Source: an uncultured Spirochaetota bacterium
GTDB lineage: Bacteria; Spirochaetota; Spirochaetia; SZUA-6; Fen-1364
NCBI GenBank assembly: GCA_963745235.1
Contig: CAVUXE010000008.1
Location: forward strand, 1-57,717
Direction of reading: 5' to 3'
Length of the DNA stretch: 57,717 bases
Below the pieces are notes generated by a model, which had not been told where the DNA came from, ran no database searches, and saw only the letters and a program-made list of their open reading frames with translations. The translations under genes were made by a program, and so were the position numbers. Shown one piece after another: positions 10,898-51,056 of this stretch. Each line of letters begins with the position of its first letter. The first letter of the stretch is position 1.

Positions 10898-10980
10898 GGA
10901 ACAAGACGATGGGGTGGAAAGAAGCGGCCATAGGCCGAATACCGTGAAAACAGTGCTTCAAAGGGTATCGAGACCGTGGC

Positions 10981-11372
10981 CAGGTCTTGTTTTCGACCGA
11001 CGATCGCGATAGAGTTTCTAGCTGAACAGCTTTTCCTCTTGGAATTGTCGCCCCCGGTTTCAACTCCTTTCCGGGGGCGATTTCTTAGGTTTCAAAGAAG
11101 TACGGAGGCATGCCTGCTCCCCCATGAAGGTTCTTTCATGCTGACGATCTCCCGCGCTGGTACACATGATTGATCGAACGAAAGGGTAATAAGGGCCGAT
11201 CCCTCCCAGCGCTGACTTACCGCCATCGGACTCCGCGCCTGCGCATAAACGCTGCATGAAATATCAGTCTCGGGCAGAAGGTTAGGCAAGAGAAGCGCCA
11301 GGCTGTTTCACTCAGGAACTACCGCGGAGGATTCCCTGTCGCGCCCTCTCAGCGCGCACCATGGCCTGGCGC
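10981..11372. repeat. structured non-coding element, copy 1 (hairpin H + core C + module M on - strand)
   Basis: Shares blocks CGCCCCCGG..CCGGGGGCGATT, CATGCTGACGATCTCCCGCGCT, GACTTACCGCCAYCGGACTCCG and GCCATGGTGCGCG..CGCGAC..GAAAC with copies 2 and 3. Confidence 0.85.
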
Positions 11373-11405
11373 GGGAGAGTATGCACCCTGCGGGGAGTAC
11401 AGGGG

Positions 11406-11444
11406 AAAGAAAAGAAGGGGCCCCGGAGCGGGGATCCCGGGCCG
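11406..11444 (-). terminator. intrinsic terminator
   Basis: GGCCCCGG/CCGGGGCC stem (11419-11444) followed on the - strand by a U-rich run; near-identical to 12121-12156. Confidence 0.65.
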
Positions 11445-11492
11445 TGTCGTGTGAAGATTTTCGTCTACCTTTTCGGCAGCCGCGGTGCGTAC

Positions 11493-11669
11493 TTAAGGAG
11501 TTGTCGTCCGCTGGAATTCTCGCTCCGCCTTCCTCATCACAACCTTCTGGGATTTACACGCTTCGCAAGAATACTCGACCCACAGATCACCCAAACCTGT
11601 CTCGATCATCTCTGTGTTGCAGAAAGGACACAGAACCTCTGTCACCCCGTGCTCCGTTTTACATCCATG
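11493..11669 (-). CDS. small zinc-ribbon protein (CPFC...CEAC); likely indel near start
   Basis: Two CxxC pairs; GGAGGGG RBS before an ATG overlapping the previous stop. Confidence 0.45.
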   Translation of the reverse strand, partial: HGCKTEHGVTEVLCPFCNTEMIETGLGDLWVEYSCEACKSQKVVMRKAEREFQRTTTP

Positions 11670-11877
11670 CCACCCCTTCTTTCTTCTCGAGCTCTCTCCA
11701 GCGCTGTTCCATCTCCTCAAAGCCATGCTTGGGCATGAATCCGAAATCGTGCGAGCCACGGGGACCGCATCCATAGGGATACACCTTTTTCGGAATACCA
11801 AGGGGGAACGCCTCACAGCTCAGGCGTCCCTCGGTGTCTCCCAACCCTTTGCAGATCGTACAGAATGGTGACGCCAT
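11659..11877 (-). CDS. small Cys-rich phage-like protein (CxxC...CEAFPxGIP)
   Basis: MASPFCTICKG...SCEAFPLGIP; motif recalled from prophage hypothetical proteins. Confidence 0.5.
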   Translation of the reverse strand: MASPFCTICKGLGDTEGRLSCEAFPLGIPKKVYPYGCGPRGSHDFGFMPKHGFEEMEQRWRELEKKEGVAWM

Positions 11878-12120
11878 GTTTACGCGCGCTTCCCAGGCCA
11901 GAGCGAACGCAAAACCCAATAGATAGCGAACAAGGTGAAACCTACCAGCAGCACAACGAGCTTTCCCATAGAAACTCTTTTCAAAGGCCGGAGCGACTTG
12001 CCCCGCCAAACAAGTCGTTCGGGGTCTCAGAGAATTAGCCCAACATTGTGCATGGGGGACATTTTGAGCGGTAAGGCTTCCGAATATAGGGAGTGTATCA
12101 CAGTGAAGGCCCTGTCTGGG

Positions 12121-12156
12121 GAAAAGAGCGGCCCCGGACGCTGAGATCCCGGGGCC
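12121..12156 (-). terminator. intrinsic terminator (paralog of 11406-11444)
   Basis: Same 8-bp stem GGCCCCGG/CCGGGGCC, with CTCTTTTC downstream on the - strand. Confidence 0.6.
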
Positions 12157-12259
12157 CTGCGCCGCGGTGCGATCCGCAGAGGGCTCGCCGTGTCACTCGC
12201 CAGAGGAAAAAGCGCCGTTACCGACAAGTGGCTGTGGTTCGTAAAAGCCCGGGGCTATG

Positions 12260-12463
12260 TCAGTCTTTGAGAACACACTCAACCTGGCCGAGCAGCGAGA
12301 GCAGCTTCGTTGCGAACTCCTCAGAGCCAGGACTCTTTTTCATTAGGTCCGCCAGGGCCTGCAGCTTGAGATAGACGTCTTTGGGGATTTCGTAGTACGC
12401 CGCGAAACCAATATTTGCTGCATCGAAACAAACCTGGTCGGTAGTCATGTTGCAAACTCCCAC
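12260..12463 (-). CDS. small hypothetical protein
   Basis: 67-aa ORF, GGAG upstream of MTTDQ, terminator downstream. Confidence 0.45.
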   Translation of the reverse strand: MGVCNMTTDQVCFDAANIGFAAYYEIPKDVYLKLQALADLMKKSPGSEEFATKLLSLLGQVECVLKD

Positions 12464-12546
12464 TGTCAGTCCTAAAGGTTACACACAGGAAGCCGGCTTC
12501 TCAGGAGGTCTGGAAAAGAAAAAGTGGGATTCGCCCCTGGACTATC

Positions 12547-12856
12547 GCGCCAAGCCATGGTGCGCGCTGACGTTGGCGCGACGGGCATCTTTTCTTCGCT
12601 TAAGAAACGCTTGGCGCTCTCCTTTAACGAAGCCAGGTCCAACTTTGTTTTCGGCCGATGATCGCGGTAAACTTTAACTGAAGCCTTCCTCATGGGGATC
12701 GTCGCCCCCGGGTCACCTCCTTCCCGGGGGCGATTTTTTGGGTTTCAAAGAGGCACGGAGGCATGGCTGCTGCTTTCTCCATGCTGACGATCTCCCGCGC
12801 TTGGCAACATGACGAGAAACCCCAGCGCTGACTTACCGCCACCGGACTCCGTGTCT
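12547..12856. repeat. structured non-coding element, copy 2 (M on + strand, H, core C)
   Basis: M 12547-12617, H 12702-12733, core 12751-12856; same conserved blocks as copies 1 and 3. Confidence 0.85.
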
Positions 12857-13015
12857 CGAAGGAAAACGTGCCCATCAGAAGATCGCTCTTCGGCGGGAAA
12901 GCCGGCAAGACAGTCGAATAAACAGAAAGGCCCGGACGACTTGTCTCACCACAAGCCGACCGGACCACCACAGAGGTGTGACGAAAGATTGCCGAATCTC
13001 GTAGCAGAAGGCGGG

Positions 13016-13222
13016 TTAATGCTTCTGTTCGTCCTCGGGTTTCTCAATGAGATCCTCGACTTCCTCGACGATCACTTCATCGAGCAGACTGCAAAAGCCT
13101 GCTGTTCCATCCCTCACATTGCGCAACACGGCGGAGATCTCCGTCTCGACGTTGGATTCCATTAGATCAACCACTGATGCCAGCATGTTACGAACGATTC
13201 TTAACAGGTCCTGTTCCTTCAT
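13016..13222 (-). CDS. small acidic hypothetical protein
   Basis: MKEQDLLRIVRNMLAS... helical, protein-like composition. Confidence 0.4.
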   Translation of the reverse strand: MKEQDLLRIVRNMLASVVDLMESNVETEISAVLRNVRDGTAGFCSLLDEVIVEEVEDLIEKPEDEQKH

Positions 13223-13516
13223 CGCAACCCCGCTGCATGAAAAGATCGGTCTCGAGCAGAAGTCCTGGCAAGTGAAGCGCCAGACTGTATTCGTCTTGCT
13301 AAGATCGAAGTTTCGAGGAATCCTCAATCGCAAGAGTGAAATCAAGACCGGAGTTGGGTTCAACCCTCCGCCTCAAGACCCATAAAGTGTTGCGACCAAA
13401 GGACGAGTCAAAACAGGACATTCGAAGGATGCAAAACCGAAATCCATGGTCATCAATGGTTCCTGAATCAACAACGGGAGGATTGCAATGGGCACATATG
13501 CATCTATGGTACTCAA

Positions 13517-14203
13517 ATGGAGGTCGCTATGAAGGTAAATGGTAGCGCAATGTCCCAAACGGCTCTTTACCGGATTTCGGCCGTGGCGCTCCTCGTTGGG
13601 GCGGCGCTAGTCACGGCGGGCAACCTGCTGGGTCCGCAGGGCGATGCTAGAGAGGCGGTCGCCAGCGGGACGTACTATCCGGCCGCGGTCGTCGTGCTGT
13701 TGGGCGGCTTGTTGGTCATGGCGAGCTTGCCGGCCATCTACCTGCGCCAGCGGGCGGAGAGCGGCGTCCTCGGCTTTGCGGGTATGGTGGCTGTATTCGT
13801 GGCGGCGATGACACTGCTCGTCGGCTTCCCCCTGATCCAGGTTCTGATTTACCCCTGGATCGCAACCATGAGCGTCTCGAACAAGGTCCTCAACGATGGG
13901 CCGGCTTCTTTCAACGTCTTCTTCGCGGTCGCCAGTGGCATCGTCGATCTGGGTGGAGTCCTCTTCGGTGTCGCCACCATACGGGCCAGGATCTTCTCCC
14001 GCCAACTCGGTATCGGCTTCATCGCACTCACGGCGGCCAGTTTCGTACTCGGCTTCCTGAGTATTCCAGGGGGTGGGGGTATCGCTATGTCTTGGTGGTG
14101 GGCAACGACCGGGACCTTTGGTGTGGTCGCCTATATGGTGGCCCTAGCCTGGTTTGCGATCGAACTGCTACAGACCGTCGGCGTGCGTCGACAAACCCCA
14201 TGA
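13517..14203 (+). CDS. multi-pass membrane protein
   Basis: About 6 hydrophobic segments; GGAGG RBS before ATG 13529. Confidence 0.7.
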   Translation: MEVAMKVNGSAMSQTALYRISAVALLVGAALVTAGNLLGPQGDAREAVASGTYYPAAVVVLLGGLLVMASLPAIYLRQRAESGVLGFAGMVAVFVAAMTLLVGFPLIQVLIYPWIATMSVSNKVLNDGPASFNVFFAVASGIVDLGGVLFGVATIRARIFSRQLGIGFIALTAASFVLGFLSIPGGGGIAMSWWWATTGTFGVVAYMVALAWFAIELLQTVGVRRQTP

Positions 14204-14581
14204 AGCCTTCATTTCAGTTGCCGCGAGCTTCTCGTTGCAGCGTGCTTTTTCGGCCTTATCGAAGGTACAGGGATACAATGTAGCCGGGGGGCCAAAGCCA
14301 TCTTTGCTCTTTTCAAGGGGTCATTACCCACCTATTTCGGCGCCATTCAAATGACAATCGCTAGACTGGAGAAACCAAGGGCGTTCCACTGTGCTCTTGT
14401 CCACAACACCGCGGTCAAAAAGGCGATGGAGCGTCACGGGCAGGTGCCCCCAGTAAGGGGCACCGTACAGACGCTTCGAGGTTCTCCTGAACAGGTCGCC
14501 TCGGCGCTGCTCAGCGCCGGTTGATTTTCTGGGCGCGCCTTCATAAGATGATCCATCCAGGAACCAATCGGAGGCCCTTCC

Positions 14582-15205
14582 ATGAGTGACCATTCCTTTG
14601 AGGTCATGGCGTCTGCCCTGCTCATCATCGACATACAGAACGCGTTCATCCATTCCAACGGCTCTCTCCAGAGAATGGGGCTGGACACCTCTCGGACGCG
14701 AAAGGTCACCGAGCCCATCAAGAAACTGCGTGGCATGTTCCACGAGGCGGGCCTCCCCGTCATCTACCTCCAGCACACGCACGACGCCAACGGCGCGGAC
14801 ATGGGATTGATCGCTGAGGTCTTTCCTCCTATTCGGGCTCTCGGCCACTGCTTTAGTGGCTCTTGGGACGCTGCGGTGATCGACGACCTCACCCCCGCTT
14901 CAGACGATCATGTGGTCGAGAAGCACCGATTCAGCGGGTTCTACCAGACGGATCTCGAGGATCTCCTCCGAAGGCTCCGCATAAAGAGCCTTGTTGTTTC
15001 AGGAATCGCCACCAACATCTGCGTAGAGTCCACGATCCGCGACGCCTTCTTCCGAGACTATCCAGTCGTAGTGCCAAGAGAGACAACCGCCTCATTCACT
15101 GAAGAACAGGAGGCGGGCGCGCTCGGGAACTTCGCGTTCGCCTTCGCAAAGGTGATTCCGCTGGACGACGTCATCCGTTCGATCTCCGCCACGCGGCAAC
15201 CCTGA
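14582..15205 (+). CDS. cysteine hydrolase / isochorismatase family (RutB-like)
   Basis: ALLIIDIQNAF, KHRFSGFYQTDL, GIATNICVESTIRDAF (D-K-C triad). Confidence 0.9.
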   Translation: MSDHSFEVMASALLIIDIQNAFIHSNGSLQRMGLDTSRTRKVTEPIKKLRGMFHEAGLPVIYLQHTHDANGADMGLIAEVFPPIRALGHCFSGSWDAAVIDDLTPASDDHVVEKHRFSGFYQTDLEDLLRRLRIKSLVVSGIATNICVESTIRDAFFRDYPVVVPRETTASFTEEQEAGALGNFAFAFAKVIPLDDVIRSISATRQP

Positions 15206-15314
15206 GGTCCCTCTCGGGCTGCCCACGAGACTCACTTGGCAGGTCCCAAGCCCCACACAGATAACCTCCTTGACGATGTTCTTCTTTGAGAGGTAGACCG
15301 AAGGCTACTTATGG

Positions 15315-15878
15315 CTACTTTCTTGAGCTAGGACCTCTCTCGCCAGGAACGAAGTATACATAGTCACGAAACTCTTCGTCGGGGTTGCCGTCACCGTAGG
15401 GGTGCTTCTCGTTTGCGTTCGCGTGGCAAGTAATGCAAAAGTTTCCCATGAAGACTGCCTCTTTGCCGTTTGGAAGATCACGGGTGATCCAGAGCCAGCC
15501 GCCCTGGGAATGAGGATCCTCGGGAGCCTTGACCATGATAGTGAGCTGGATGGGCTGCTCGCCTGGGGCGGGTTTCGGCGTCTGGTAAACTTCCTTTACG
15601 ATGACGGTACCAACCGGGAAGTCCCACACGCGTTTGCCGTTGTCAAGGGTTGGTTTCACAGTGAAGCCGACATCGTTCATTCTTGGGATACGGAATCGGT
15701 TTTGATGGCCTGGTATTGGATAGTCAAGAACCACATCTGTCGTCCGTTTCCATGAGTGGTAGTCAGGTGTCGCGTACACATGAGGCTTCTCCGCCACGCA
15801 GCTTAAAAGCATTCCACACACGGCGAGCAGCGAAACACCAATAGTCCACAGCGCCGGGAGATTGTTCCGCACAGTCAT
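15315..15878 (-). CDS. cytochrome P460-family lipoprotein
   Basis: Lipobox LLSC, Y..W, FPVGTVIVKE, IMVK, GGWLW, C-terminal CITCH. Confidence 0.8.
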   Translation of the reverse strand: MTVRNNLPALWTIGVSLLAVCGMLLSCVAEKPHVYATPDYHSWKRTTDVVLDYPIPGHQNRFRIPRMNDVGFTVKPTLDNGKRVWDFPVGTVIVKEVYQTPKPAPGEQPIQLTIMVKAPEDPHSQGGWLWITRDLPNGKEAVFMGNFCITCHANANEKHPYGDGNPDEEFRDYVYFVPGERGPSSRK

Positions 15879-17329
15879 GGCGACCTCCCCTGAATAAAGC
15901 CAGTAAGAAGCCAGACTCGTTGAGGTTGATCTTTTCCCTTGAGTTTCGCGGAAAACGGCCCCTTGAACTGAAATCCGGCTTCCGTGGCTGACTTTGTTGC
16001 CTCGCTCACGACGATCTGCATTCCCTTCGCGATGCCGCAGAGTCGACTCGCGACATTCACCGAATCACCGATTACCGTGAAGTCAGCCCGGCGTAGCGAT
16101 CCAATCATGCCGTGGATGACCGAGCCAGTGGCAATCCCAGCTCCGACAGCAAGGTGGTCGAACTCTTCTGAGCTTTCGGCGCAGAGGCGAACGATGCGGA
16201 GTGCTGCTGTGCAGGCGCGGTGTGGGGCGTCGTCTCCTGAGTAGATGGCCACGATTTCGTCGCCCACAAACTTGTCGATGTCCCCGCCGCTTTTCTGGAT
16301 TATCTCTGATTGTTTCTCCAAAAGACGGTTCAGGACTTCCACAACCTGCTCCGGCTTGCGGCGCTCGGTGTAGGAGGTGAAGCCGCGGACGTCTGTAAAA
16401 AGCAAGGTGCGAAGAACACGCTGTGGTTCTTGGCTCGCTTTCAAGGAGTCCAAAGTACTTGCCGAGACGTACTTGGTGAGCTCGAAACGCTCTCGCAGAC
16501 CCCCGACCATAGTGTTGACCGTCCGTGCAAGCGTCCCAATCTCATCGTTGCTTCTGATTTCGACTCGGCCCTGAAAGTTCCCCGAGGTTACCTCTGTGCA
16601 CACCTTACCAATGAATTGCACTGGCTTCAGCACGACGCGTCGAAGAAACGTGCCGATCGCCCATACGAGGATCGTAACCACCACGAGAAAGCCTATTCCC
16701 GAGCCGCCTATTGTGAATGCCTGGGCTTTGACGGCCCCTGTCACGTCGCTCCGTATGTCAATGACTCCCCGCACAGTATGGTCCGCTCCATGGCACACAG
16801 TACATTTGGGGAGGTTTATCAGAGGTCTGTACGCTCGGAAATATGCCGTTCCTCCAGCGAGGGGATGACCGAGGTCGTCTCGAAAGAACAAGTCTTGCGG
16901 CGGTATGCCAGCTGCCTCGGCGAACCGGGGTGTCGGCATGGCCTTGCCTGGAGGCGACGGACGATCCTTGATCTGAAAGCGCTGCTTCCCAAGGTTTCTG
17001 TTCACCGTCTCGATGGTGGAATTGTCCGAAAAGGCTCTTGTTCCATCTCTTCGATACAGAGTGATTGATGTTCTGGCGTCCGTGAGATTGACCTTGGTAA
17101 AGTAGCCAACGGCTTCAGGAGCGTTGCCCGATAGCATCAGGGTCTCTATCGCGATGAAGTGATCGTCACCCTGTCTTTGCAGGCTCTGTATCGAAAGCCG
17201 GTTGCCAAAGGCAATCAGTGACGCGGCAAAGACGACAATGACAGCTCCAATCCCGACGGTCAACGCAACGACGAGGATGGTATCTACCTTGAAAGTTAAA
17301 GAGAAAAACCGTGCCTTTCTGTCTTTCAT
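15875..17329 (-). CDS. class III adenylate/guanylate cyclase with periplasmic CxxCH sensor and HAMP
   Basis: TM-periplasmic domain (PKCTVCH)-TM-HAMP (DEIGTLA)-cyclase (FTDVRGFT, DKFVGD, DFTVIGDSVNVASRL). Confidence 0.9.
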   Translation of the reverse strand: MKDRKARFFSLTFKVDTILVVALTVGIGAVIVVFAASLIAFGNRLSIQSLQRQGDDHFIAIETLMLSGNAPEAVGYFTKVNLTDARTSITLYRRDGTRAFSDNSTIETVNRNLGKQRFQIKDRPSPPGKAMPTPRFAEAAGIPPQDLFFRDDLGHPLAGGTAYFRAYRPLINLPKCTVCHGADHTVRGVIDIRSDVTGAVKAQAFTIGGSGIGFLVVVTILVWAIGTFLRRVVLKPVQFIGKVCTEVTSGNFQGRVEIRSNDEIGTLARTVNTMVGGLRERFELTKYVSASTLDSLKASQEPQRVLRTLLFTDVRGFTSYTERRKPEQVVEVLNRLLEKQSEIIQKSGGDIDKFVGDEIVAIYSGDDAPHRACTAALRIVRLCAESSEEFDHLAVGAGIATGSVIHGMIGSLRRADFTVIGDSVNVASRLCGIAKGMQIVVSEATKSATEAGFQFKGPFSAKLKGKDQPQRVWLLTGFIQGRSP

Positions 17330-17514
17330 CGATCCCGTCAGTATAGGCCGGGGCTATCGCGCCTTCAAGCTTCGCGTGCAAAGCTTCAGACCAGTTTCGC
17401 ACCAACGCTCTGAGGCACCCGGGCAACATCGGAGCTACCAGTAGACAGTCCGCAACGTTATGGGAAGTCAGGAAGGCTTTGCCACCTGCAAAAGACCATC
17501 ATAAAATAAGTGCT

Positions 17515-18555
17515 TCATTCCACGTCGCCCCCAGCGAAGTGTTGGAACAGATTCTCCTTGAGCTCTTCCAGTGCCGGCAGGCGTTTCAATACAGATAGCT
17601 CACATCCAAGGATCGCCGCCACCTTCCTCAGAGCCGCAGCAAGAGCCTGCCGCGGGACGTGGATGGCCAGCGGGATCCGAGAATGCTTTCTTACGAGTTC
17701 GAGCAGCTGCTTGTTCAACGCCCAAGCTTTTAGGTCAGGATCATCCGCCTGATCAAGAAGTTCAATACCCAAGCCGAGCCCGCTATGTTGATCGACCCAG
17801 CACATGGCCATGGGGTAGTAAGGTCGTTCACCTGGTGACTCTCGTGTAGGAGTAGGTACGTAAAAGAGGTCTGCTTCCCAGATCCCTTCCTGCCTCGCCG
17901 TCGAGCCTTTCAGTCTTGCGGCCTCAGTTTCGTCTACTACGGATTCTTGAAGTGGCCCAACAGGGGAGGGAGCTGGTTTTATCCACTGATCGATCCAACC
18001 TCCATCCGCTGCCATTACGCGAACGAAAAGCTCCTTCGCCCGAGGCGGCGCGAGCAATTCCGGCTCCGATCGTAACCGCGAACACGCCACAAAGGCTTGC
18101 TGCAGAACTTCAGTAAAGAAAACGACCTCCGATCCATCAAGACGCCAGGGGTACCATCCGCGTCGGTGACTCCTAAATTGCGGCCAACTGTTGCGCCCCC
18201 GAAAGGTAAGACCGAGCGATTTTATGAGGGCGAAGTCGCTGGCTTCCAGTCCCTGGCGGTTTTCAAACGATACCATGAGGCACGGGAACCCATAACGGAT
18301 TTCATCGTCGTCTGCCCTCAGTTCGCCAGCCTGGATTCTGCAGTGGATGCTAAGCCCGGCGGCGCCAAGGTAGGCAGCCAGCCCGAAAACCTCCCCTCTC
18401 AGGCCCAGGACACTGCACCAAGCGATCTGTCCCTGGTTCGCGTCCACCACTCCGAAAACCATGTTGTCGTCCATCCATACCCAAGGACCAAGGTCGCGGA
18501 AAGCCTCGGCAGCAGCAAAAAGGTCTCTCCATTGCTCGTCCAGTGCTTCTGGCAT
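17515..18555 (-). CDS. conserved hypothetical protein
   Basis: 346-aa ORF with protein-like composition (PWVWMDD, WPQFRS...YPW); no function recognised. Confidence 0.7.
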   Translation of the reverse strand: MPEALDEQWRDLFAAAEAFRDLGPWVWMDDNMVFGVVDANQGQIAWCSVLGLRGEVFGLAAYLGAAGLSIHCRIQAGELRADDDEIRYGFPCLMVSFENRQGLEASDFALIKSLGLTFRGRNSWPQFRSHRRGWYPWRLDGSEVVFFTEVLQQAFVACSRLRSEPELLAPPRAKELFVRVMAADGGWIDQWIKPAPSPVGPLQESVVDETEAARLKGSTARQEGIWEADLFYVPTPTRESPGERPYYPMAMCWVDQHSGLGLGIELLDQADDPDLKAWALNKQLLELVRKHSRIPLAIHVPRQALAAALRKVAAILGCELSVLKRLPALEELKENLFQHFAGGDVE

Positions 18556-18647
18556 GAGGGGAGAATAACGGAGACTATCTTACCCTGTGAACCACCTCGC
18601 GAGCCGACCCGAAGCTAACCCTTAAAATGCCTTCATCTGGCTTTGAT

Positions 18648-19115
18648 CTACTTTCCTAATCTTGGATCCAACTTATACTTGAGAGGGGTGCCTATGACGA
18701 TTTTCGAAAAATCGGGGTGTTCTGGATTTAAGAGGTAGTTGCACTGACCGGGGACCACCCCTGAAGGCACGCGTAAGACAGCGCTTCGATGCGATGTGAT
18801 CCAGTCCCCTCCAATTTGCTGTAGTTTAGCCCATCCTGGGTCTACAAGCCTTTGCCACCCTCGTGGAAGAGTAAGAGGATCCAGTTTTTCAACGAAGCTT
18901 TCATCAAAAGAGCACGGGATAAGAACATAAAGCGTAAGCAGCCGCTCATCCGTGTGAACAAGAAGCTCCAAGGTTGCCAACGACTGAGAATCGGAGGTGT
19001 AAACAACCTTCTGCCCGCTCGTATTCCACCGCCCCGGCGCTCGCGCTGCTCCTGCGCCATCAAAAGCGGTCCGAACATATTTCGGCTTGCAAATGCGCCA
19101 AGCCTCTACTGTCAT
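18648..19115 (-). CDS. RES-domain toxin
   Basis: WRI...GAGA...GRWN..G..VVYTS.S..LA.LE.LVH, LRVPS, NYLLNP.HPDF. Confidence 0.9.
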   Translation of the reverse strand: MTVEAWRICKPKYVRTAFDGAGAARAPGRWNTSGQKVVYTSDSQSLATLELLVHTDERLLTLYVLIPCSFDESFVEKLDPLTLPRGWQRLVDPGWAKLQQIGGDWITSHRSAVLRVPSGVVPGQCNYLLNPEHPDFSKIVIGTPLKYKLDPRLGK

Positions 19116-19609
19116 GAAAAAACGCCATTCTCAATTCGTCCAATCAAGTTTTCAACAAGAGCTGTCCCTGCCTCGGTTGCTATCATCTCTTCAGGCGATA
19201 GTCCTTCAAATGCCGAGTTCCTGCGCTTCAACCATTCCAAGGCGGCTTCCTGATCGCCTTCGTAAAGCTCGCACGCGTGCCAGAAGACGCGGAGAAGCCT
19301 GACAGCCCGGTCCGATTCAATAGAGTCCAGTCTTCCGCTCTTTTTTCGTCTCTCAAGCGTGCGAAAGCTCATCTGAAGAGCTGTCGCGATCTGTGTGCGA
19401 TCTAGCTCCAAGGTATCTTGAAGCAATTTTACCGTTGTATAGGGAAGGCCCTTTTGTATCATCTTGAGGATTGTCTTAGGACTATTTACCTTGACCCCGA
19501 GCACCGACCAATAACCGGCCGGATCGCCACAGCCTACCCGGGGAGCGGTTCGCCTTGTATTCCTGTACTGAGCTCCCGCGGCTATCCCCTTCGACCTAGT
19601 AGTTGCCAT
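19112..19609 (-). CDS. Xre/MbcA/ParS-family antitoxin
   Basis: GLPY...SFRTLERRKK.GRL...ESDR, A.EWL...N.AF.G.SP, LIGRIENGVFS; overlaps the RES start. Confidence 0.9.
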   Translation of the reverse strand: MATTRSKGIAAGAQYRNTRRTAPRVGCGDPAGYWSVLGVKVNSPKTILKMIQKGLPYTTVKLLQDTLELDRTQIATALQMSFRTLERRKKSGRLDSIESDRAVRLLRVFWHACELYEGDQEAALEWLKRRNSAFEGLSPEEMIATEAGTALVENLIGRIENGVFS

Positions 19610-19646
19610 ATGGCGTAATATATGCGTCATTTGGCGAACCTGTCAA
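19604..19646 (-). promoter_or_regulatory. sigma70 promoter with palindromic operators for the Xre-RES operon
   Basis: TTGACA (19646-19641)-18 bp-TATATT (19622-19617); CGCCAAATGACG and CGCCATATGGCA quasi-palindromes. Confidence 0.6.
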
Positions 19647-19818
19647 TACATTCGTTCTCGGAGTCGACCGAAGGCGCAGTTATTGGAAGTAGGTAGCAGA
19701 CCTGCCGGAAGAACCTCTTGCAGTGCGACATCCGGGTCGCCGCAAAACATCCTTACGTGAGGGGAAGAAAACCAAGGCCTCGGTGGGCAGTCTGTTCAAG
19801 AAAGAGTAAATTCGCTCT

Positions 19819-20222
19819 GCGCCGGGCCATGGTGCGCGTCGAGATGACGCGACAGGGCTTCCACTTTGCCCGTATGAAACAGCTTGGCGCCCTTTCAATC
19901 GTCCTTGCATTCTCCCGAATAATCCTGGTAAGCTGCTTTTTTCCCTTGTGCGTGCGCCCCCGGAAAATCCTGTTGGAGGATGCCTCCTGGAATCCCGGGG
20001 GCGATTCTTTAGGCTTTCCCAAAGAGGCACGGAGACATGGCTACTGTAATTGGAAAAGTCCCCCTGCGCCATGCTGACGATCTCCCGCGCTGGTACATGA
20101 TCGTGAAGAAAAATGAAGGCGATCCTTCCCAGGCGCCGACTTACCGCCACCGGACTCCGTGCCCAAAGAAAGATACAGAAAGCGCCAGGCCGTTTCACTC
20201 AGGAACTACCCGTGGCCTGGCG
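19819..20222. repeat. structured non-coding element, copy 3 (M+, H, core C, internally deleted M-)
   Basis: M 19819-19890, H 19955-20003, core 20026-20163, short inverted M 20182-20222. Confidence 0.85.
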
Positions 20223-20448
20223 AAGGCCGACCGGGTTACTTCAAATCGTTGCGGGTCCGAAGGCCCATGACATTTCTCACGGGGCGTGACGGGCCCACGT
20301 CAGCTCCCTTCCGACGGGCTCTTACTGTTGTGCTGGATCAATGCCGTATTCCTTTCTGATCGATTGCGAAAGGAATTGAGCATCGAAAAGATCGTGGTGT
20401 ATTTGGATACGACAAACCCTTCAGAAAACTTCACCACGGCCCTGAGCA

Positions 20449-22272
20449 CTATCTCCCACGGTCGGCTGTCAACTCCAAAGCTGCTACCGCCCCTACCGCG
20501 CTTCCCCGCCCGTTGTTTTCGTTGGCGTAAGCCTCCGTTTCACCTTCCACTTTGAACTGGCCTGCTATCGCCTGAAGGTCTTGCGCCAGCTCTGAAAGCT
20601 GCTCGACAGCACTCGATATCTCCTGCGCCGACGCCGCGGCGGCATGGGTGATCTGGTTCGCCTCTTCTACCGCACCCGAGACGCGCTTCGCCTTCTCAGC
20701 CTGCTGCTCCGTTGCCGTTGAGATGCTCTTGCTCATGGCCCCGATATTTTGAAGGACTTGCGACAGTTCTTTCACAGCAAGGACCTGTTCCGCCATGGAG
20801 GCGGACACAGCAGAGACAGTTTCCCTGACCTGCTGCGACGCGGACCGTATGTGGTCCATGGCCAGCCGCGAGTTCCCCGCGGTTTCCACCCCGCGGGCCA
20901 CATTACCCTTGCTTACCTGCATCAGCCGTTCGATCTCCTTCGTGGATCTCGAGCTGCGCTCCGCAAGTTTTCGCACTTCCTCCGCCACCACCGCGAACCC
21001 GCGGCCATGTTCGCCTGCTCGGGCCGCTTCGATGGACGCATTGAGGGCCAAGAGGTTCGTCTGATCGGCAATGTCGGAAATGACGTCCACAATTCCTCCT
21101 ATCATTTCCGAGCTGTCGGCAATCTGCTGCATCCCTCCTGTCACCAGATGTACGGCCTCGGAGCCTTCCGCTGCCTTCGCCATGGACTGGTCGGTCAACT
21201 CTACAATCTGGTCAACGCTTTTCGAGACATCCTCGATGGCATTCAGCACCCGAGCCATAGTGACAGAACCCTGGCTCACGGCCGCTGCCTGCGAGTGGGC
21301 GGCCTGGGAAACCTCGGCCACGGATGCGGCTAGGTGCTCCGCGGAGGCGCTTGTCACACCGAGTGAGGATGCCTGGCTCTGGGCGCCTTCCGCGATATGG
21401 ACGATGGCTGAATTGATTTCCTCGGTTGACGAGGCAACCAGACCTGCCTCTTCCTGGATCCGCGCTACCATCAGGCGAAGCCGCCCCACCATTCCGTTGA
21501 GCGCGCGAGCGAGCTTCCCCACCTCATCCCCGCGGTTGGCCTTGATCTCCTGCCCGAGATCCCCTGCTGCCACCAGCTCTGCCAGAGCGATTCCCCGCGC
21601 TAGCGGCCTGGTTATCGAAATCGCAAAAGAGATGCCAATTATCATCGCCAAAAGCGGCCCGGCGACGAGTGCGACCTCCGTTGCTTCGCGCACCTCAGCG
21701 ATTACATCCTCACCGTTCTGCGCAGCCTGGAAGGCGTATCCATTTTTCAGCTCGACGCTCGATGAGAGAATGCCAAGAGCGTTTTCGCGCTCCGCGCCCT
21801 CGACTCGGAGAACCTGCTCCACCATCCTCTCGTGAAGGGCCTTGGAAGGCGCGGCGCGGTAGGATTTCTCCATTTGGACAAAAGTTTCGTGTTCTTTCCA
21901 CCAATCGTCCCACGCCGGCTTGAACTCAGCCCACAGCGCTTGCTCCGTGTCCGTCCTTGAAAGAGGCTCATACGCCTTGAGCGCATTCCCGGCGGATTGC
22001 TCAGCGTCGATCAGGTGCGAATAAGCGGTCGTCCGGTCCTGGTCTCCTATCCCCTCGACGAGAAGCAAACACTCCGCGGCTTGCACCTCCTCCATCGCAA
22101 CCTTGAGGCTCAAAACGGAGACCGATCCGGGGAGAAGGCCTTTTACAGCGGAGTCGAGCAGAGATGCAACACGTGTGACGCTCAGCATGCCGAAATACCC
22201 GACCGGCACGATCAGAAGAGACACGAACAGAAACCCTGCGAGTAGCTTGGGGACCAACTTGAAGTTCCTCAC
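20449..22272 (-). CDS. methyl-accepting chemotaxis protein (4HB sensor, HAMP)
   Basis: [40 protein letters not shown]; 2 TM + HAMP. Confidence 0.95.
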
Positions 22273-35233: not shown

Positions 35234-36211
35234 GTGACAGCAGAGCTCACCGACCGCGTCGAGAAGACAGGAGCGCAGCGCGTAAAGGCAATCGTGCGCC
35301 ACCTCTCCCAGCACGCCCCGCGCCTGGCTGACCTCGACGAGGAGCAGCTGGAGCAGCTTGCGCGTGTGGTAGTGGCTGAAACCCTTAAGGACGAGCTACG
35401 CCAGGCCGCGGACCTGGAGCGGATCCCCTACGCCCAGGAGCGCGAGTGCTACCTGGAACGAGCGGGACGGGCAGGGTCAAAGCACACCAGGCTCGCGTAC
35501 CGCGCGGCCCTGGACCGCCTGGAAGCCTGGTGCGCCCCCAGGGGGCTTTCTCCCTTGGAGCTGATCCCTGCCTTGGCCGATGACTGGATCGAGAGCATGA
35601 AGGCCGAGGGCCTCGCTCCTTCCAGCGTCCACCTCATGGTGGCCGCCTCATCATCCTTTTGGACCTGGCTCGAGCGCCGTCACCGCGAGCTTCATAACCC
35701 CTTCCGCGGTACCAGGAGCCGTCCGCTCAAGAAGCCAGCCCGCAGGCTTCAGGTTCCCAGTGAGGGGGAGGTCAAACTCATCGAGAAGGCCGCCGGCGGA
35801 TGGCTGAGAGCGGCCGTGGTTGTAATGGCCAGGGTGGGCCTTCGCGCAGGGGCCCTGCCGTCGCTTTCGATCACGGGAAGCCACTTCACATGCATGAGCA
35901 AGGGCCGGGAACAGGTTGGCCTGATCCCCGAGGAGGCGAGGAAGGCGGTTGGGCGCGCCGGGCTGCCGCTACGCTCGCCGTTTGAGGGGAAGAAGGTCAA
36001 CAAGATCGAGGACGCGCTGAAGTATCTCACCAAGAAGCTCGAAGGGCAGGGGAGGATCCGAGGAGCGTACTCCGCCCACGACCTGCGTCATGCGTTTGCC
36101 GTTCGGCTTTACCGGCGGACGCACGACGTGTATGCGCTCAAGGGCGCCTTGGGACATGCTAACGTTGCGGTGACGGAGGCCTACCTACGAAGCTTGGGGC
36201 TTGAGCGGTAG
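35234..36211 (+). CDS. tyrosine recombinase (resolvase-like)
   Basis: GLRAG, SKG, SAHDLRHAFA, LGHANVAVTEAYL. Confidence 0.9.
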   Translation: MTAELTDRVEKTGAQRVKAIVRHLSQHAPRLADLDEEQLEQLARVVVAETLKDELRQAADLERIPYAQERECYLERAGRAGSKHTRLAYRAALDRLEAWCAPRGLSPLELIPALADDWIESMKAEGLAPSSVHLMVAASSSFWTWLERRHRELHNPFRGTRSRPLKKPARRLQVPSEGEVKLIEKAAGGWLRAAVVVMARVGLRAGALPSLSITGSHFTCMSKGREQVGLIPEEARKAVGRAGLPLRSPFEGKKVNKIEDALKYLTKKLEGQGRIRGAYSAHDLRHAFAVRLYRRTHDVYALKGALGHANVAVTEAYLRSLGLER

Positions 36212-44976: not shown

Positions 44977-45891
44977 TCAGTCCGTGTTGGTTGGGATCTC
45001 CGAACCGCAGATCTTATCGACTACTGCCGCGAGTTGATCGCGGCTAACGAAGCAAATGCTAACCCTTCCGGATTCGTGCGTGCCCTCCAGGGCAAGGTCG
45101 ACTCCAGCTCCGAGCTTGGCGCGTAGTCGATCTATAAGACGGTTGAAATCGATCGGTTTGCTCACAGAAAGTCCCGGATCCGGAGATGGTTCTTGTATAT
45201 CGGGTCCCGGTTCCCCACCATTGAGGCCTGATGCGTCTTTCTCCCTAGCTCGAATCGTGTTGTATCCTTTGTTGATAGAAAGCTCCCCTCTCTTGACCGC
45301 AGCAGCCATTTCCGGATCGGCGATGACCTTGCGAGCTCTTTCAACCTTGCGAGTGGATGTCCCGATTTCTCTGGCAGTGCGTTGGGCGGTACTGGCAAGA
45401 CGCTCTCCATTTCCGCCACGTGGCGGAAATGGAGAGTTACCCTTAAAGCCGGTCACCTTTTTGTCGATTACGCCGAGAACGGAAATAATCTCCGCGTCGC
45501 TCAGATTCCGTCGGTCTCTCTGTGTGTGTATGGCGTAGTCACGCGCTTCCTCAGCATTTGCAAAGTCATGAAGGTACGCCGTCACTGTCAGCCTTCCAAT
45601 TTCCTTGGCTGCCTGTGCTCGTGTAAAACCATCTACAAGGACGTACTCGAATCCGTCCTGGGTTGCCCTTTTCCAGACGTCTATAGGCTTGGACTCATCG
45701 TAGCCATGCTCCTGCATGTGGGACCTTATTGCGCTTCTTACTTGATCACGGATCGGAAAGAGTGACTTGAACGGTTCCTCCAGCAATAGCTCGTCGATGT
45801 TCATGTTGAGAGTTTCGATTCGCCTGACTGATGAGTTGTTCCCGGACTCAGCTTTTGCAGCAAGGGCAGATAGATCGAGTTTTCGTGACAT
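44977..45891 (-). CDS. ParB-like partition protein
   Basis: LFPI...GYD...PI.VW...LVDGFTR..AA...QRDRRNL, HTH TAREIGTSTRKVERAR. Confidence 0.8.
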   Translation of the reverse strand: MSRKLDLSALAAKAESGNNSSVRRIETLNMNIDELLLEEPFKSLFPIRDQVRSAIRSHMQEHGYDESKPIDVWKRATQDGFEYVLVDGFTRAQAAKEIGRLTVTAYLHDFANAEEARDYAIHTQRDRRNLSDAEIISVLGVIDKKVTGFKGNSPFPPRGGNGERLASTAQRTAREIGTSTRKVERARKVIADPEMAAAVKRGELSINKGYNTIRAREKDASGLNGGEPGPDIQEPSPDPGLSVSKPIDFNRLIDRLRAKLGAGVDLALEGTHESGRVSICFVSRDQLAAVVDKICGSEIPTNTD

Positions 45892-46647
45892 CTAGTACCT
45901 CCCAATTGCGCGATCTGCCCCGATGAGGCCGGCCAGATCATGGATAGCGTTGAACAAAGTCATCTTGCTCACGGCATCAGTCATCTTTTCCTTAGTGTCG
46001 ATACTGCGTTGAAGCAGCGTTGTCTCAGGGATTTGGACAGGAAGAATTACACTGTCGAAAGTGTTGCGGAAGAGGGTCTCGTACTGGTTACGGAGGGACT
46101 CGGAATTGCTCGTTCTGGGGGCTCTGTAGAAATTGAAAACGATCCGCCAGGCCGGCAGACGATCTGTATCCTGGGAGATCTGATCGCGGTAGAAAAGTGC
46201 TCCCTTGAAATCGAACTGGGAAAGCCTCACGGGCGTCAGGATGAAATCTGACGCGCAGATTGCGTTCTGGACCAGGTTGTCATAGGTGGGCGCGCAATCA
46301 ATAAGGATAAAATCGTAGTCTGGCTTGGTCTCGGCGATCATTCGCTTAAGGGTGTTCGCCCCGATGGTCCTGAGGTTCGTCAGCGAAAATGACGAGGCCA
46401 GAATATCGATCCCAGAGCAGTTGGAAGGGAGAATGTTGCTGGTCAGATCCTTCGAGTTCAAGGCAAGCGCCAAGTTCTTTCGATTCGTAACCGAAAGCTC
46501 GTCAAGGTAGTAGAACGAGAGCGAGTTTTGAATGTCGAAATCCACGACAAGCACTCGGTAGCCGGCCGCCGCGCAGTAGTTCGCGACATGAATGCAGATG
46601 CTGGTCTTGCCGGTACCACCCTTGATGCTTGAGAACGAGACTACCAT
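45892..46647 (-). CDS. parA: ParA-family ATPase
   Basis: KGGTGKTS, DFDIQNS, DFILIDCAP; GGAGG RBS. Confidence 0.9.
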   Translation of the reverse strand: MVVSFSSIKGGTGKTSICIHVANYCAAAGYRVLVVDFDIQNSLSFYYLDELSVTNRKNLALALNSKDLTSNILPSNCSGIDILASSFSLTNLRTIGANTLKRMIAETKPDYDFILIDCAPTYDNLVQNAICASDFILTPVRLSQFDFKGALFYRDQISQDTDRLPAWRIVFNFYRAPRTSNSESLRNQYETLFRNTFDSVILPVQIPETTLLQRSIDTKEKMTDAVSKMTLFNAIHDLAGLIGADRAIGRY

Positions 46648-46689
46648 GTTGCACCTCCAATTCTGCAATTTGGGGAAAGAGATCACTCT

Positions 46690-48732: not shown

Positions 48733-48959
48733 GGACGCTGGTTTCTCGGCTTTCCAACCGGAACCTTCTGCGAGTTCAGGAACTCCTGCAGGTCCTGGAC
48801 ATCGAATCGGACAAGTCTTCCGACATGAAGGTGCGGCACGCGTCGCTGCGACACCAACCTTCTCAGACTTTGAGGCCTGATATGCAACAGAGCCGCCGCG
48901 GTGTTGTAGTCAATCAGGTTGATGTTAGTGGAGGTGGACATGGTTTCTTCGTTGTTCAT
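48729..48959 (-). CDS. excisionase-like HTH protein
   Basis: AAALLHIRPQSLRRLV...VPHLHVGRLVRF....L.EFL. Confidence 0.8.
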   Translation of the reverse strand: MNNEETMSTSTNINLIDYNTAAALLHIRPQSLRRLVSQRRVPHLHVGRLVRFDVQDLQEFLNSQKVPVGKPRNQRP

Positions 48960-49708
48960 GAGGGCACCGTATCACCTGGTTGAGCTGTGAGTCGAATTTC
49001 GAGGAAGGCAGAAATATGGCTAGTTTTGGCTGTTCTTAGCCCACATTTTTGCTTCCTTTCAAAATCCTTGATTGCTTCCGCGGCGGTCCGACAGATGGAA
49101 CTTTCCTTTCCGGGTAGAAATTTTTTCGAGGCGCGCAACGGGACAAGCGGTTGGAGTTGGTCAATAACCCGAAGGATGAAAAAAATAGGATAGCCTTTGT
49201 AGCGCTTGCGACTTTTGTCCCATGTGACGAAGCCCGAACCACCGCAGGCCAGATATGTGCGATACAACTCAATCACCAAGTGCTTGAAATCCAAAAGCTC
49301 AGGACGTCCTGCCGAGCGAGCTTCCAAAGATCGCCTCTCGGCCGCTTGCTCAATCTTTCTGACGAGGCTTATCGCGCGTTTCAACGAAAACAGGTACCGG
49401 TTGCCTCCCTTCGGTTCAAAGAGGTTCAAACCATGCAAAACAGCGTCGTAGGAATATAAGGAGAGCTCGTTCAAGGCCCTTTCGGCCGCCACCGCTTTCT
49501 TGAAGATTGCTCGCGCCTTGTATCTGGACGCCTCCGCGCCGAAGGGAGGCGCGAAGCAGTACGATTCCGCCTCCGCCAGAAACTCTTCACAGAGGTCGTA
49601 GATTCGATTCTTCGCCGCCGCATTCAGAGACACTTCCCGGCTTTCGATCTTGTCGAAGTCCAGCGACAGTTCGTCAGAAAACCCGAAATAACGGGATTCG
49701 TCCGTCAT
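48956..49708 (-). CDS. hypothetical protein
   Basis: 250-aa ORF coupled between integrase and Xis. Confidence 0.6.
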   Translation of the reverse strand: MTDESRYFGFSDELSLDFDKIESREVSLNAAAKNRIYDLCEEFLAEAESYCFAPPFGAEASRYKARAIFKKAVAAERALNELSLYSYDAVLHGLNLFEPKGGNRYLFSLKRAISLVRKIEQAAERRSLEARSAGRPELLDFKHLVIELYRTYLACGGSGFVTWDKSRKRYKGYPIFFILRVIDQLQPLVPLRASKKFLPGKESSICRTAAEAIKDFERKQKCGLRTAKTSHISAFLEIRLTAQPGDTVPS

Positions 49709-50875: not shown

Positions 50876-50900
50876 GCTGCCTCCCTCGACTCACTCTCGA

Positions 50901-50921
50901 TGTCAGAGTGAGTGTCAGAGT
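50901..50921. repeat. tandem TGTCAGAGT repeats (possible integrase arm-type sites)
   Basis: TGTCAGAGT at 50901 and 50913, between the tRNA 3' end and int. Confidence 0.4.
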
Positions 50922-50984
50922 AGAGCTACATGGAAGCGCCCGTTTTCGGGTGGCTTCCTATTCCCTACAACGTAGGGACTTAAA

Positions 50985-51056
50985 TGGGCGATACTGGATT
51001 TGAACCAGTGACTTCTACCGTGTGAAGGTAGCACTCTCCCACTGAGTTAATCGCCC
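50985..51056 (-). tRNA. tRNA-Val (anticodon CAC), CCA not encoded
   Basis: GGGCGAT-TA-ACTCAGTGGGAGAGT-G-CTACC TT CAC AC GGTAG-AAGTC-ACTGG TTCAAAT CCAGT-ATCGCCC-A cloverleaf. Confidence 0.95.

What the first reader, a model, noticed from the sequence alone, without database searches (positions are those of the whole stretch)
11295..20222. Module M: a 71-78 nt three-way junction with clear covariation, used in both orientations
Copies: 11295-11372 (-), 12547-12617 (+), 19819-19890 (+), plus a deleted form 20182-20222 (-) that still closes the outer stem. In the common orientation: P1 GCGCCAGGC/GCCTGGCGC, GCGCCAAGC/GCTTGGCGC, GCGCCGGGC/GCTTGGCGC; invariant junction CATGGTG; P2 CGCGC/GCGCG, CGCGCT/GGCGCG, CGCGTC/GACGCG; junction AC(A); P3 GGGA/TTCC, GGGC/GCTT, GGGC/GCCC; junction ..GAAAC(A). 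Changes are compensatory or G-T/U wobbles in this polarity, so the fold is strand-specific. Invariant junction bases suggest a ligand, protein or catalytic pocket. Pairs on opposite strands recall ambisense ribozymes or paired primase-recognition (ssiA/ssiB-like) sites.
Basis: partly seen in the sequence, partly recalled or inferred. Interest (0 to 1): 0.8.

Follow-up and report, generated by a model that had tools for sequence, protein, structure and literature searches.

The report
Border repeat of a promoter/RNA cassette
Module M is a real, self-folding 65-78-base repeat found almost only in this one genome, where it marks the edges of a larger repeated non-coding cassette; nothing supports a ribozyme, riboswitch or primase site.

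Summary
The four copies exist at the stated coordinates. The genome holds three more full copies, on contigs C11, C12 and C30. The outer stem P1 and the GC hairpin P2 are solid, and P3 is a different hairpin in each copy.

"Clear covariation" is overstated. 11 of 17 P1+P2 pairs never vary, and 67 of 500 shuffles reach the 3 double changes counted over all 20 pairs with P3. The fold is not strand-specific: wobble cells number 6 on the named strand against 4 on the other, and 2 of 6 copies fold better as the complement.

No Rfam family matches. M was found in no other genome except two remnants in one congener.

The main new result is context. M always lies beside "R", a larger conserved three-helix element. 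All 9 M copies and remnants point toward the nearest R. That explains the "both orientations".

M is present or absent between close paralogues as a clean 82-nt block.

My best reading is that M is an insertable border module of a mosaic, mobile-element-associated promoter/small-RNA cassette. It probably acts in cis on transcripts that enter or start at the border. Function is unproven because no RNA data exist.

The parts
11295..11372 (-). M copy A, 78 nt, full. It lies 55 nt 5' of R_A in the same polarity.
   Evidence: (88.8 bits)
12547..12617 (+). M copy B, 71 nt, full. It lies 3' of R_B on the opposite strand and points back toward R_B. With 11 more bases it is an 82-nt block missing from the C30 paralogue.
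   Evidence: (72.7 bits)
19819..19890 (+). M copy C, 72 nt, full. It lies 3' of R_CD on the opposite strand and points toward it. It starts 7 nt after a weak -10-like hexamer.
   Evidence: (83.1 bits)
20182..20222 (-). M copy D. P2 and half of P3 are deleted (37 nt lost) and the ends still pair. It lies 18 nt 5' of R_CD in the same polarity. With copy C it forms an inverted pair around R_CD.
   Evidence: 32.9 bits, E 0.0015
11097..11239 (-). R_A: conserved element of three helices around a junction, with variable hairpin tips. Its RNA-like sense is on the minus strand.
   Evidence: (115.2 bits)
12750..12855 (-). R_B
   Evidence: 113.2 bits
20024..20163 (-). R_CD
   Evidence: 114.2 bits
11241..11294 (-). 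Conserved linker between M_A and R_A. It holds TTGCCK, 17 nt, then GATCTT-like at fixed spacing in most R copies. This is a possible weak promoter of R. The reading is my own; the scanner did not call it.
   Evidence: not called
11047..11086 (+). Terminator-like hairpin plus T run, on the strand opposite R_A. Its loop is C/U-rich and resembles an anti-Shine-Dalgarno sequence.
12701..12739 (+). The same terminator-like hairpin, opposite R_B
19953..20010 (+). The same terminator-like hairpin with an extra inner hairpin, opposite R_CD
12645..12673 (+). Promoter-like TTGTTT, 17 nt, TAAACT between M copy B and the terminator-like hairpin. This is my own reading and falls below the scanner's threshold. 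Counterparts lie at 10987-11015 and 19905-19934.
   Evidence: not called

Best explanation
M is a lineage-specific, self-complementary module of 65-78 nt that can be inserted or lost. It belongs to a mosaic repeat family. Its only habitat is the outer border of the 'R cassette', a repeat of about 300-400 nt. That cassette consists of the structured element R on one strand, faced by a short promoter-plus-terminator unit on the other strand.

M always has the polarity of transcription running into the cassette from that border. I infer that M acts in cis at the RNA level, as a stable three-stem plug. On this view it stops or buffers transcription coming from outside, or it protects the 5' end of the transcript that starts at the border. 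That would bias which of the two convergent transcripts of the cassette prevails.

Shown: the copies, their fold potential, the linkage to R, the polarity rule, the presence/absence between paralogues, and the narrow distribution.

Inferred: that M is transcribed, and that its effect is termination, insulation or stabilisation.
For: - Linkage and polarity. All 7 copies in the genome and both remnants in congener G017 (9 of 9) lie beside an R and point toward it. Copies A, D, C11, C12 and C30 and remnant L021 are 5' of R in the same sense. Copies B and C and remnant L030 are 3' of R on the other strand.
- Dispensable module. At least 6 R copies have no M nearby: C31, C103a and C103b in G000, and G015 x3. 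B and the C30 paralogue are 79-86% identical on both sides of a clean 82-nt indel that is M plus 11 nt.
- A and C30 are 89-93% identical from the upstream terminator through M and diverge right after M, so M sits at mosaic breakpoints.
- Transcription context. In the M-less C30 paralogue the scanner calls a promoter, TTCTCA-17-TAAAAT (9 of 12), immediately upstream of the site where B carries M, aimed at the terminator-like hairpin. That hairpin is called terminator-like on the strand opposite R at all 6 R loci scanned: A, B and CD in the window, plus L024, L030 and L034.
- Strand asymmetry outside the stems. The 10 nt after P1 hold 4-6 T in 7 of 7 copies, and the complement's tail holds 0-2 T. 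Genome T fraction is 0.19.
- The core is about 90% conserved between copies whose P3 and flanks are unalignable.
Against: - There are no expression data of any kind.
- The stems show no strand preference. That fits a DNA-level palindrome at least as well as an RNA.
- A plug or terminator does not need conserved junction bases, so CATGGTG, AC and GAAAC remain unexplained.
- Both flanks of M are pyrimidine-rich on the named strand, not only the 3' tail, and the T tract is interrupted. The scanner does not call M a terminator; it was not built for branched stems.
- In A, C11 and C12 an ordinary terminator-like hairpin already lies about 25-45 nt upstream of M, so M would be redundant as a terminator there.
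- Only 6 full copies exist, two of them near-identical, so every count rests on about 5 independent sequences.
Confidence: 0.35

Rival explanations
1. DNA-level mobile element. M is the terminal inverted repeat, or recombinase or single-strand nuclease recognition site, of a small non-autonomous element of MITE or foldback type whose cargo is R. Single-M units are decayed copies.
For: - C and D are inverted copies bracketing R_CD, 404 bp end to end.
- Wobbles occur on both strands, as expected for a DNA palindrome.
- Junction bases are conserved, as a protein-binding sequence would be.
- There is clean presence/absence between paralogues.
- R/M contigs share mobile-element genes with the window within 5-20 kb: an IS91-family transposase, a tyrosine recombinase and an HTH_36 protein.
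- In C103b the two arms around R are inverted repeats of each other (score 25 against 14.4 +/- 2.2, 0 of 200 shuffles).
Against: - No target-site duplication is seen at B against C30 or around the C...D unit.
- Only one unit of nine has M at both ends.
- No M-ended transposase gene is present: the model finds nothing beyond the 7 copies in this 86%-complete genome, nor in 91 other genomes of the order or 150 of the class.
- The arms are not inverted repeats in A, B, C11, C30 or C31.
- The four Y1 transposase genes lie on other contigs.
Confidence: 0.25
2. Upstream DNA control site. M is bound, as duplex or cruciform, by a regulator that controls the promoter lying just downstream of it on either side of the cassette.
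For: - M lies in fixed polarity 5-30 nt upstream of promoter-like hexamer pairs in A, C11, B and C.
- The sequence is conserved regardless of strand.
- The junction contains the palindrome CCATGG.
Against: - Those promoters are my own sub-threshold readings and were not called by the scanner.
- In D and C12 the linker with the supposed promoter is missing.
- The P1 arms are 55-60 bp apart, which by my recall is unusual for an operator.
- No candidate regulator is linked to M.
Confidence: 0.12
3. M is a ligand- or protein-binding RNA domain (riboswitch-like), or a small self-cleaving ribozyme.
For: - The fold is a three-way junction with conserved unpaired bases and a variable third stem.
- In B and C the order promoter-like site, then M, then terminator-like hairpin resembles an aptamer with an expression platform.
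Against: - No Rfam family matches at E up to 10.
- No gene follows the terminator on that strand.
- Stem mismatches that are tolerable only on the other strand occur in C11 and C12.
- M is confined to one genome plus remnants in one congener. Such a narrow range is unlike the metabolite sensors I know of.
- The paralogous cassette works without it, or at least exists intact without it.
Confidence: 0.06
4. M has no function. It is a selfish or hitch-hiking palindromic insert that spread with recombining cassettes. Its 'conserved' core reflects recent common origin or gene conversion.
For: - The range is very narrow and the copy number low.
- Decayed forms exist: D, C12 and the G017 remnants.
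- Covariation is not significant.
Against: - The core is about 90% identical while P3 and the flanks are saturated. This needs either selection or a mechanism that homogenises only the core.
- Two true compensatory changes keep P1 and P2 paired.
- The polarity rule holds in 9 of 9 cases.
Confidence: 0.2

Closest known systems
Mosaic intergenic repeats built from interchangeable modules (E. coli BIME/REP, pneumococcal BOX elements; recalled, not read here)
   Same: These are short self-complementary modules combined in different orders and orientations. They are intergenic, can be transcribed, and differ in presence between paralogous or orthologous sites.
   Different: M has only 7 copies and is never found away from R. 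It is a branched fold with conserved junction bases, not a simple hairpin. No linked RAYT-type gene was found.
MITEs with regulatory content, such as Neisseria Correia elements (recalled)
   Same: They have inverted ends, are small, can carry promoters or terminators, and can form RNA stems in transcripts.
   Different: No target-site duplication is seen, and M is at both ends in only one unit (C...D). No autonomous partner was found.
Reused or 'mobile' promoters: highly similar upstream regions in front of unrelated genes (PMC3575422; I saw the search listing and the start of the abstract only)
   Same: The R cassette with its promoter-like parts recurs in front of unrelated small genes. These include a 67-aa protein, a Cys-rich small protein and a RES/Xre toxin-antitoxin pair.
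   Different: That concept concerns promoters. Here the repeat also carries a structured element, an antisense unit and the M border module.
Integron attC sites
   Same: Both are structured repeats between small, same-direction genes of unknown function in a mobile-element-rich region. attC sites are recognised by structure more than by sequence.
   Different: I could not find the core-site motifs that I recall for attC in M or R. No integron-integrase model matched the nearby tyrosine recombinases. M occurs in both orientations relative to the genes.
Single-strand initiation sites and single-strand promoters of plasmids
   Same: Both are folded single-strand structures with sequence-specific unpaired bases near mobile-element genes.
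   Different: M is not near the only primase/helicase-like gene. It occurs on four contigs and always beside R. Single-strand function was not testable here.

Membership tests
Any Rfam 15 family (including hammerhead, twister, pistol, hatchet, HDV-like ribozymes and all riboswitches) | Match to the family covariance model | tested here: not met
   The only hit in the window at gathering score is a tRNA at 50985-51056. At E up to 10 on 10900-13100 and 19650-20450, no listed match covers a whole M copy. One match (PhotoRC-I, 19850-19901, 10.7 bits against a cutoff of 45, E 8.1) overlaps the 3' half of copy C and is far below threshold.
Structured RNA with proven covariation | Compensatory changes above what shuffles give | tested here: inconclusive
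   3 of 20 pairs have double changes, and 67 of 500 shuffles reach that. 93.2% of cells pair, against 29-46% when partners are slid. There are too few, too similar sequences.
   6 G-T against 4 A-C cells. The named strand is more stable in 4 copies and the complement in 2.
MITE | Terminal inverted repeats | tested here: met
   This holds only for the C...D unit, 19819-20222. Other units have M at one end only.
MITE | Target-site duplication; empty sites | tested here: not met
   No duplication is seen at the B against C30 indel or outside C and D. No orthologous empty site was found in 20 congeners.
MITE | Related autonomous element with the same ends | tested here: not met
   The model finds only the 7 copies in G000, 2 remnants in G017, and nothing in the other genomes searched. 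Only 31-52 first-look candidates per genome were scored, and G000 is 86% complete.
REP/BIME | Many copies genome-wide and a linked Y1 (RAYT) transposase | tested here: not met
   There are 7 copies, all beside R. The four Y1 genes lie on C28, C57 and C75, none on an M contig.
Integron attC | Integron integrase nearby; cassette array in one orientation | tested here: not met
   The tyrosine recombinases at 35234-36211 and 49709-50875 and on C11 match only generic Xer-type models, far below cut-off, and no integron-integrase model is listed. M occurs in both orientations.
Intrinsic terminator | GC-rich stem directly followed by a U tract on the transcribed strand | tested here: inconclusive
   P1 is 9 bp and GC-rich. 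The tail has 4-6 T in 10 nt in 7 of 7 copies, against 0-2 on the complement. The tract is interrupted, the stem is branched, and the scanner does not call it.
Primase recognition / ssi site | Functional link to a primase; priming on single-stranded DNA | not testable with these tools
   Only location could be checked. The 46690-48732 gene (AAA_25 domain) is single-copy, and M lies on four contigs.

The most novel reading that the evidence does not exclude
M may be a structure-plus-sequence-specific recognition element read by a so-far unidentified factor. One option is a folded single strand used as the crossover or nicking site that lets R-type promoter/RNA cassettes be swapped between mobile elements. 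That would be an attC-like system without an integron integrase. The other option is a 5' RNA domain that senses a protein or ligand and sets read-through of the adjacent terminator, gating antisense transcription across R. Either way, the conserved junction bases would form the binding pocket and the variable P3 would be a spacer.
Probability: 0.1. Interest if true: 0.75.

Novelty: new variant of a known kind. Interest (0 to 1): 0.33.

Why it matters
M on its own is a minor, lineage-restricted repeat. Its value is as a pointer to the R cassette, which has several unusual properties:
- It is multi-copy and sits in mobile-element-rich regions.
- It has no Rfam match.
- It carries a well-conserved three-helix element, faced by a short antisense unit whose terminator loop looks like the ribosome's anti-Shine-Dalgarno sequence.
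- It recurs in front of unrelated small genes, including a toxin-antitoxin pair.

If M biases which of the two convergent transcripts wins, the cassette family would be a natural example of modular, portable gene-expression switches. If M is a recombination site, it would show how such cassettes move.

Tried and rejected
- Ribozyme or riboswitch. There is no Rfam match. I rejected this as the leading reading but did not exclude it.
- Primase or ssi link. I rejected it on location.
- Integron. No integron-integrase match was found, and I found none of the attC core motifs I recall.
- REP/RAYT. Y1 transposase genes exist but lie on other contigs.
- Pairing between the variable P3 of M and the variable tips of its own R. 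No cognate preference appeared in a 6 x 9 duplex-energy table on either strand.
- The whole cassette as one long inverted repeat. This held only in C103b, and in CD through M itself. It did not hold in A, B, C11, C30 or C31.
- More M copies from public collections.
  - The gapped pattern was too loose.
  - None of the 239 pattern matches I screened paired 9 of 9 in P1 or looked like M.
  - These scans therefore say nothing about absence, and their caps are spent.
- Viral contigs. There were 0 matches for the M pattern. The R 17-mer gave 16 matches, and the R model confirmed 0 of 16.
- A looser P2 pattern in 25 family genomes gave mostly noise. The two look-alikes I checked (G005, G016) are not M.
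- The G027 hit (25.2 bits, E 0.05) was not studied further. I take it for chance.
- Expression. No RNA holder was listed. Laying contigs of four DNA runs showed only fragments and paralogue-like joins. One loose end continues copy C with a different P3 region and the same 3' end.
- Orthologous empty site for the C/R/D unit. None was found in 20 congeners.
- Pfam on the small neighbouring ORFs returned nothing.
- Supplements of papers were not consulted.
- Structure prediction, complex prediction, the protein homology searches and the atlas were not used, because no protein question arose.

Full report
**1. The observation**

The four stretches are in the sequence as described. Aligned in one polarity, they share the outer inverted repeat P1, the junction with CCATGG, a GC hairpin P2, the bases AC, a variable region, GAAAC and the 3' arm of P1. 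The fourth copy lacks 37 nt, namely P2 and part of P3, but still pairs its ends.

This is not chance.
- The 13-mer spanning the first junction is exact in three places. With up to two mismatches it gives 9 window matches, against a mean of 2.61 in shuffles, and 0 of 100 shuffles reach 9.
- In the whole 5.85-Mb assembly (104 contigs, 85.7% complete) the exact 13-mer occurs 7 times. Two of these, on C27 and C53, lack everything else of M.
- A covariance model built from six copies recovers six full copies: window A, B and C, C11:15448-15520, C30:28055-28130 and C12:25821-25885. It also recovers the deleted form and nothing else.

**2. How good the fold is**

Each copy folds with P1 closing a branched structure. 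P2 forms as proposed in 5 of 6 copies. P3 is a different hairpin in every lineage: 6 bp in A, 7 bp in C11, 4 bp in C, an alternative that uses GAAA in B, and none in C12. Z-scores against shuffles are modest, -1.4 to -3.6 on the named strand.

On the alignment, 93.2% of cells pair, against 29-46% when partners are slid. Only 3 of 20 pairs change on both sides, and 67 of 500 column shuffles do as well. 11 of the 17 P1+P2 pairs never vary. So the helices are real as inverted repeats, but covariation is not statistically shown.

Strand specificity fails.
- Of 102 P1+P2 cells, 6 are G-T on the named strand and 4 are A-C, which means G-T on the complement.
- The complement folds better in C11 (-42.7 against -36.5 kcal/mol) and in C12.

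**3. Known families and distribution**

Rfam 15 gives only a tRNA in the window at gathering score. At E up to 10 around the copies it gives only sub-threshold noise, the nearest being a 10.7-bit PhotoRC-I match over the 3' half of copy C.

With the M model:
- 92 genomes of the order give full-strength matches only in G000, plus two weak hits.
- 150 further sampled genomes of the class give none.
- Only 31-52 first-look candidates per genome were scored, so weak relatives may be missed.

The weak hit in congener G017 is a true remnant: the 5' half of M fused to the 3' part of an R element. A second G017 remnant, the 3' part of M, lies just downstream of an intact R.

Viral contigs gave nothing.

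**4. What M sits in**

Aligning the surroundings shows that M is the small part of a larger repeat. Its core, which I call R, has these properties:
- It is 103-143 nt long.
- It has a 10-bp closing helix, a long arm with an internal loop, and a second hairpin.
- The junction and stem sequences are nearly invariant, while the two hairpin tips differ completely between copies.

G000 has nine R copies. Three are in the window, at 11097-11239, 12750-12855 and 20024-20163. An R model finds R in 3 of 20 other genomes of the genus and in 0 of 71 other genomes of the order.

R has a preferred strand.
- The window's minus strand folds better in 9 of 9 copies.
- Two helix positions are G-U in 11 of 15 sequences, which would be C-A on the other strand.
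- Covariation proper is again not significant, at 155 of 500 shuffles.

On the strand opposite R, each unit has a hairpin followed by a T run. The scanner calls it terminator-like at all 6 R loci scanned: A, B and CD in the window, plus L024, L030 and L034. Its loop is C/U-rich, and weak, non-significant Rfam hits to CCUCC-loop sRNAs reflect this.

Between M and R lies a conserved linker with TTGCCK, 17 nt, then GATCTT-like at fixed spacing. I read it as a possible weak promoter of R, but the scanner does not call it.

**5. The rule that explains 'both orientations'**

Every M points toward its R.
- A, D, C11, C12, C30 and the G017 fusion remnant lie 5' of R in R's sense.
- B, C and the other G017 remnant lie on the far side of R on the other strand.

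That is 9 of 9 cases, though they are not independent. C and D bracket one R as an inverted pair.

M is dispensable. R units on C31 and C103 (two) and the three in G015 have no M. B and its C30 paralogue are 79-86% identical on both sides of a clean 82-nt block that is M plus 11 nt. The block is present only in B and has no target duplication.

A and C30 are 89-93% identical through M and unrelated right after it. In the M-less C30 site the scanner calls a promoter (9 of 12) immediately upstream of the point where B carries M, aimed at the terminator-like hairpin. In C, M begins 7 nt after a weaker -10-like hexamer. So at least the B and C type of M is probably transcribed at the head of a short antisense RNA.

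Outside the stems there is a strand asymmetry: 4-6 T in the 10 nt after P1 in 7 of 7 copies, against 0-2 on the complement. However, the 5' flank is pyrimidine-rich too.

**6. Surroundings**

The genes downstream of R units are unrelated small ORFs without Pfam matches. In the window they also include a RES/Xre toxin-antitoxin pair.

Contigs that carry R or M share mobile-element genes with the window:
- window 33.7-36.3 kb, with a tyrosine recombinase, is 98.7% identical to C11 2.6-5.2 kb;
- window 41.0-43.6 kb, with an IS91-family transposase, is 90% identical to C31 10.1-12.7 kb;
- an HTH_36 gene region recurs on C11 and C103.

No integron integrase was found, and the Y1 transposase genes are elsewhere.

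**7. Interpretation**

The descriptive part is well supported. M is an insertable border module of a mosaic, mobile-element-associated cassette, confined to this lineage.

The mechanism is inferred. Three facts point to M being transcribed as a stable three-stem plug: M always has the polarity of transcription entering the cassette, it sits just downstream of a called promoter in the B-type site, and it carries a T-rich tail on that strand only. Such a plug would stop incoming transcription or protect the 5' end of the border transcript, and so shift the balance between R and its antisense partner. I put this at about 0.35.

Several points count against it. Stem evolution is strand-neutral, the conserved junction bases are left unexplained, and ordinary terminators already lie upstream of A, C11 and C12.

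The main rival, at about 0.25, is a DNA-level role as inverted end or recognition site of a small mobile unit.

**8. Novelty and score**

In kind, M resembles the modular palindromic repeats and regulatory MITEs already known. It is new in sequence, in its branched fold with conserved junctions, and in its strict border-and-polarity relation to R.

With one genome, about five independent copies and no expression data, it is of modest interest by itself. The R cassette is the better target for follow-up.

Noticed in passing
window 11097-11239, 12750-12855, 20024-20163 (all minus strand); also G000 contigs C11, C12, C30, C31, C103 (two): R is a 103-143-nt element with three helices around a junction, near-invariant junction and stem sequences, and two hypervariable hairpin tips. 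G000 has 9 copies. It occurs in 3 of 20 other genomes of the genus and in none of 71 others of the order. It has no Rfam match. G-U pairs and folding energy favour the minus strand. It is probably a new structured RNA.
   Followed up: partly
window 11047-11086, 12701-12739, 19953-20010 (plus strand), with promoter-like sites at 10987-11015, 12645-12673, 19905-19934: Opposite each R lies a short unit: promoter-like hexamers, then a GC hairpin with a T run, whose loop reads like the anti-Shine-Dalgarno end of 16S rRNA (recalled). This is a candidate antisense small RNA of about 55-60 nt. On R's strand the same hairpin shows a Shine-Dalgarno-like loop.
   Followed up: partly
window 32.2-36.3 kb and 41.0-43.6 kb; G000 C11 2.6-7.2 kb, C31 10.1-12.7 kb, C103 3.3-3.9 kb: Recent duplicates of mobile-element genes (tyrosine recombinase at 98.7% identity over 2.6 kb, IS91-family transposase at 90%, HTH_36 protein) lie on the same contigs as R/M units, 5-20 kb from them.
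   Followed up: partly
window 18648-19630 (minus strand): A RES-domain toxin and an Xre/MbcA/ParS-type antitoxin form a pair directly downstream of the C/R/D unit. A 51%-identical second pair lies on C11 near 98.2-99.2 kb.
   Followed up: partly
window 12929-12966 and its C30 counterpart: In units B and C30, the place upstream of the R linker that M holds in unit A is taken by an unrelated GC hairpin with a T-rich tail. This is probably the terminator of the upstream small gene.
   Followed up: no
window 44977-51056: This is an integrative-element end: a tRNA gene (50985-51056, minus strand), a tyrosine integrase (49709-50875), an AAA_25 helicase/primase-like protein (46690-48732), and ParA- and ParB-like genes. 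No direct repeat of the tRNA end was found in the window.
   Followed up: partly
run X6 contig end at window 19858: A metagenome contig follows copy C up to the end of P2 and then continues with a different P3 region and the usual GAAAC plus P1 3' arm. Further M variants therefore exist in related populations.
   Followed up: no
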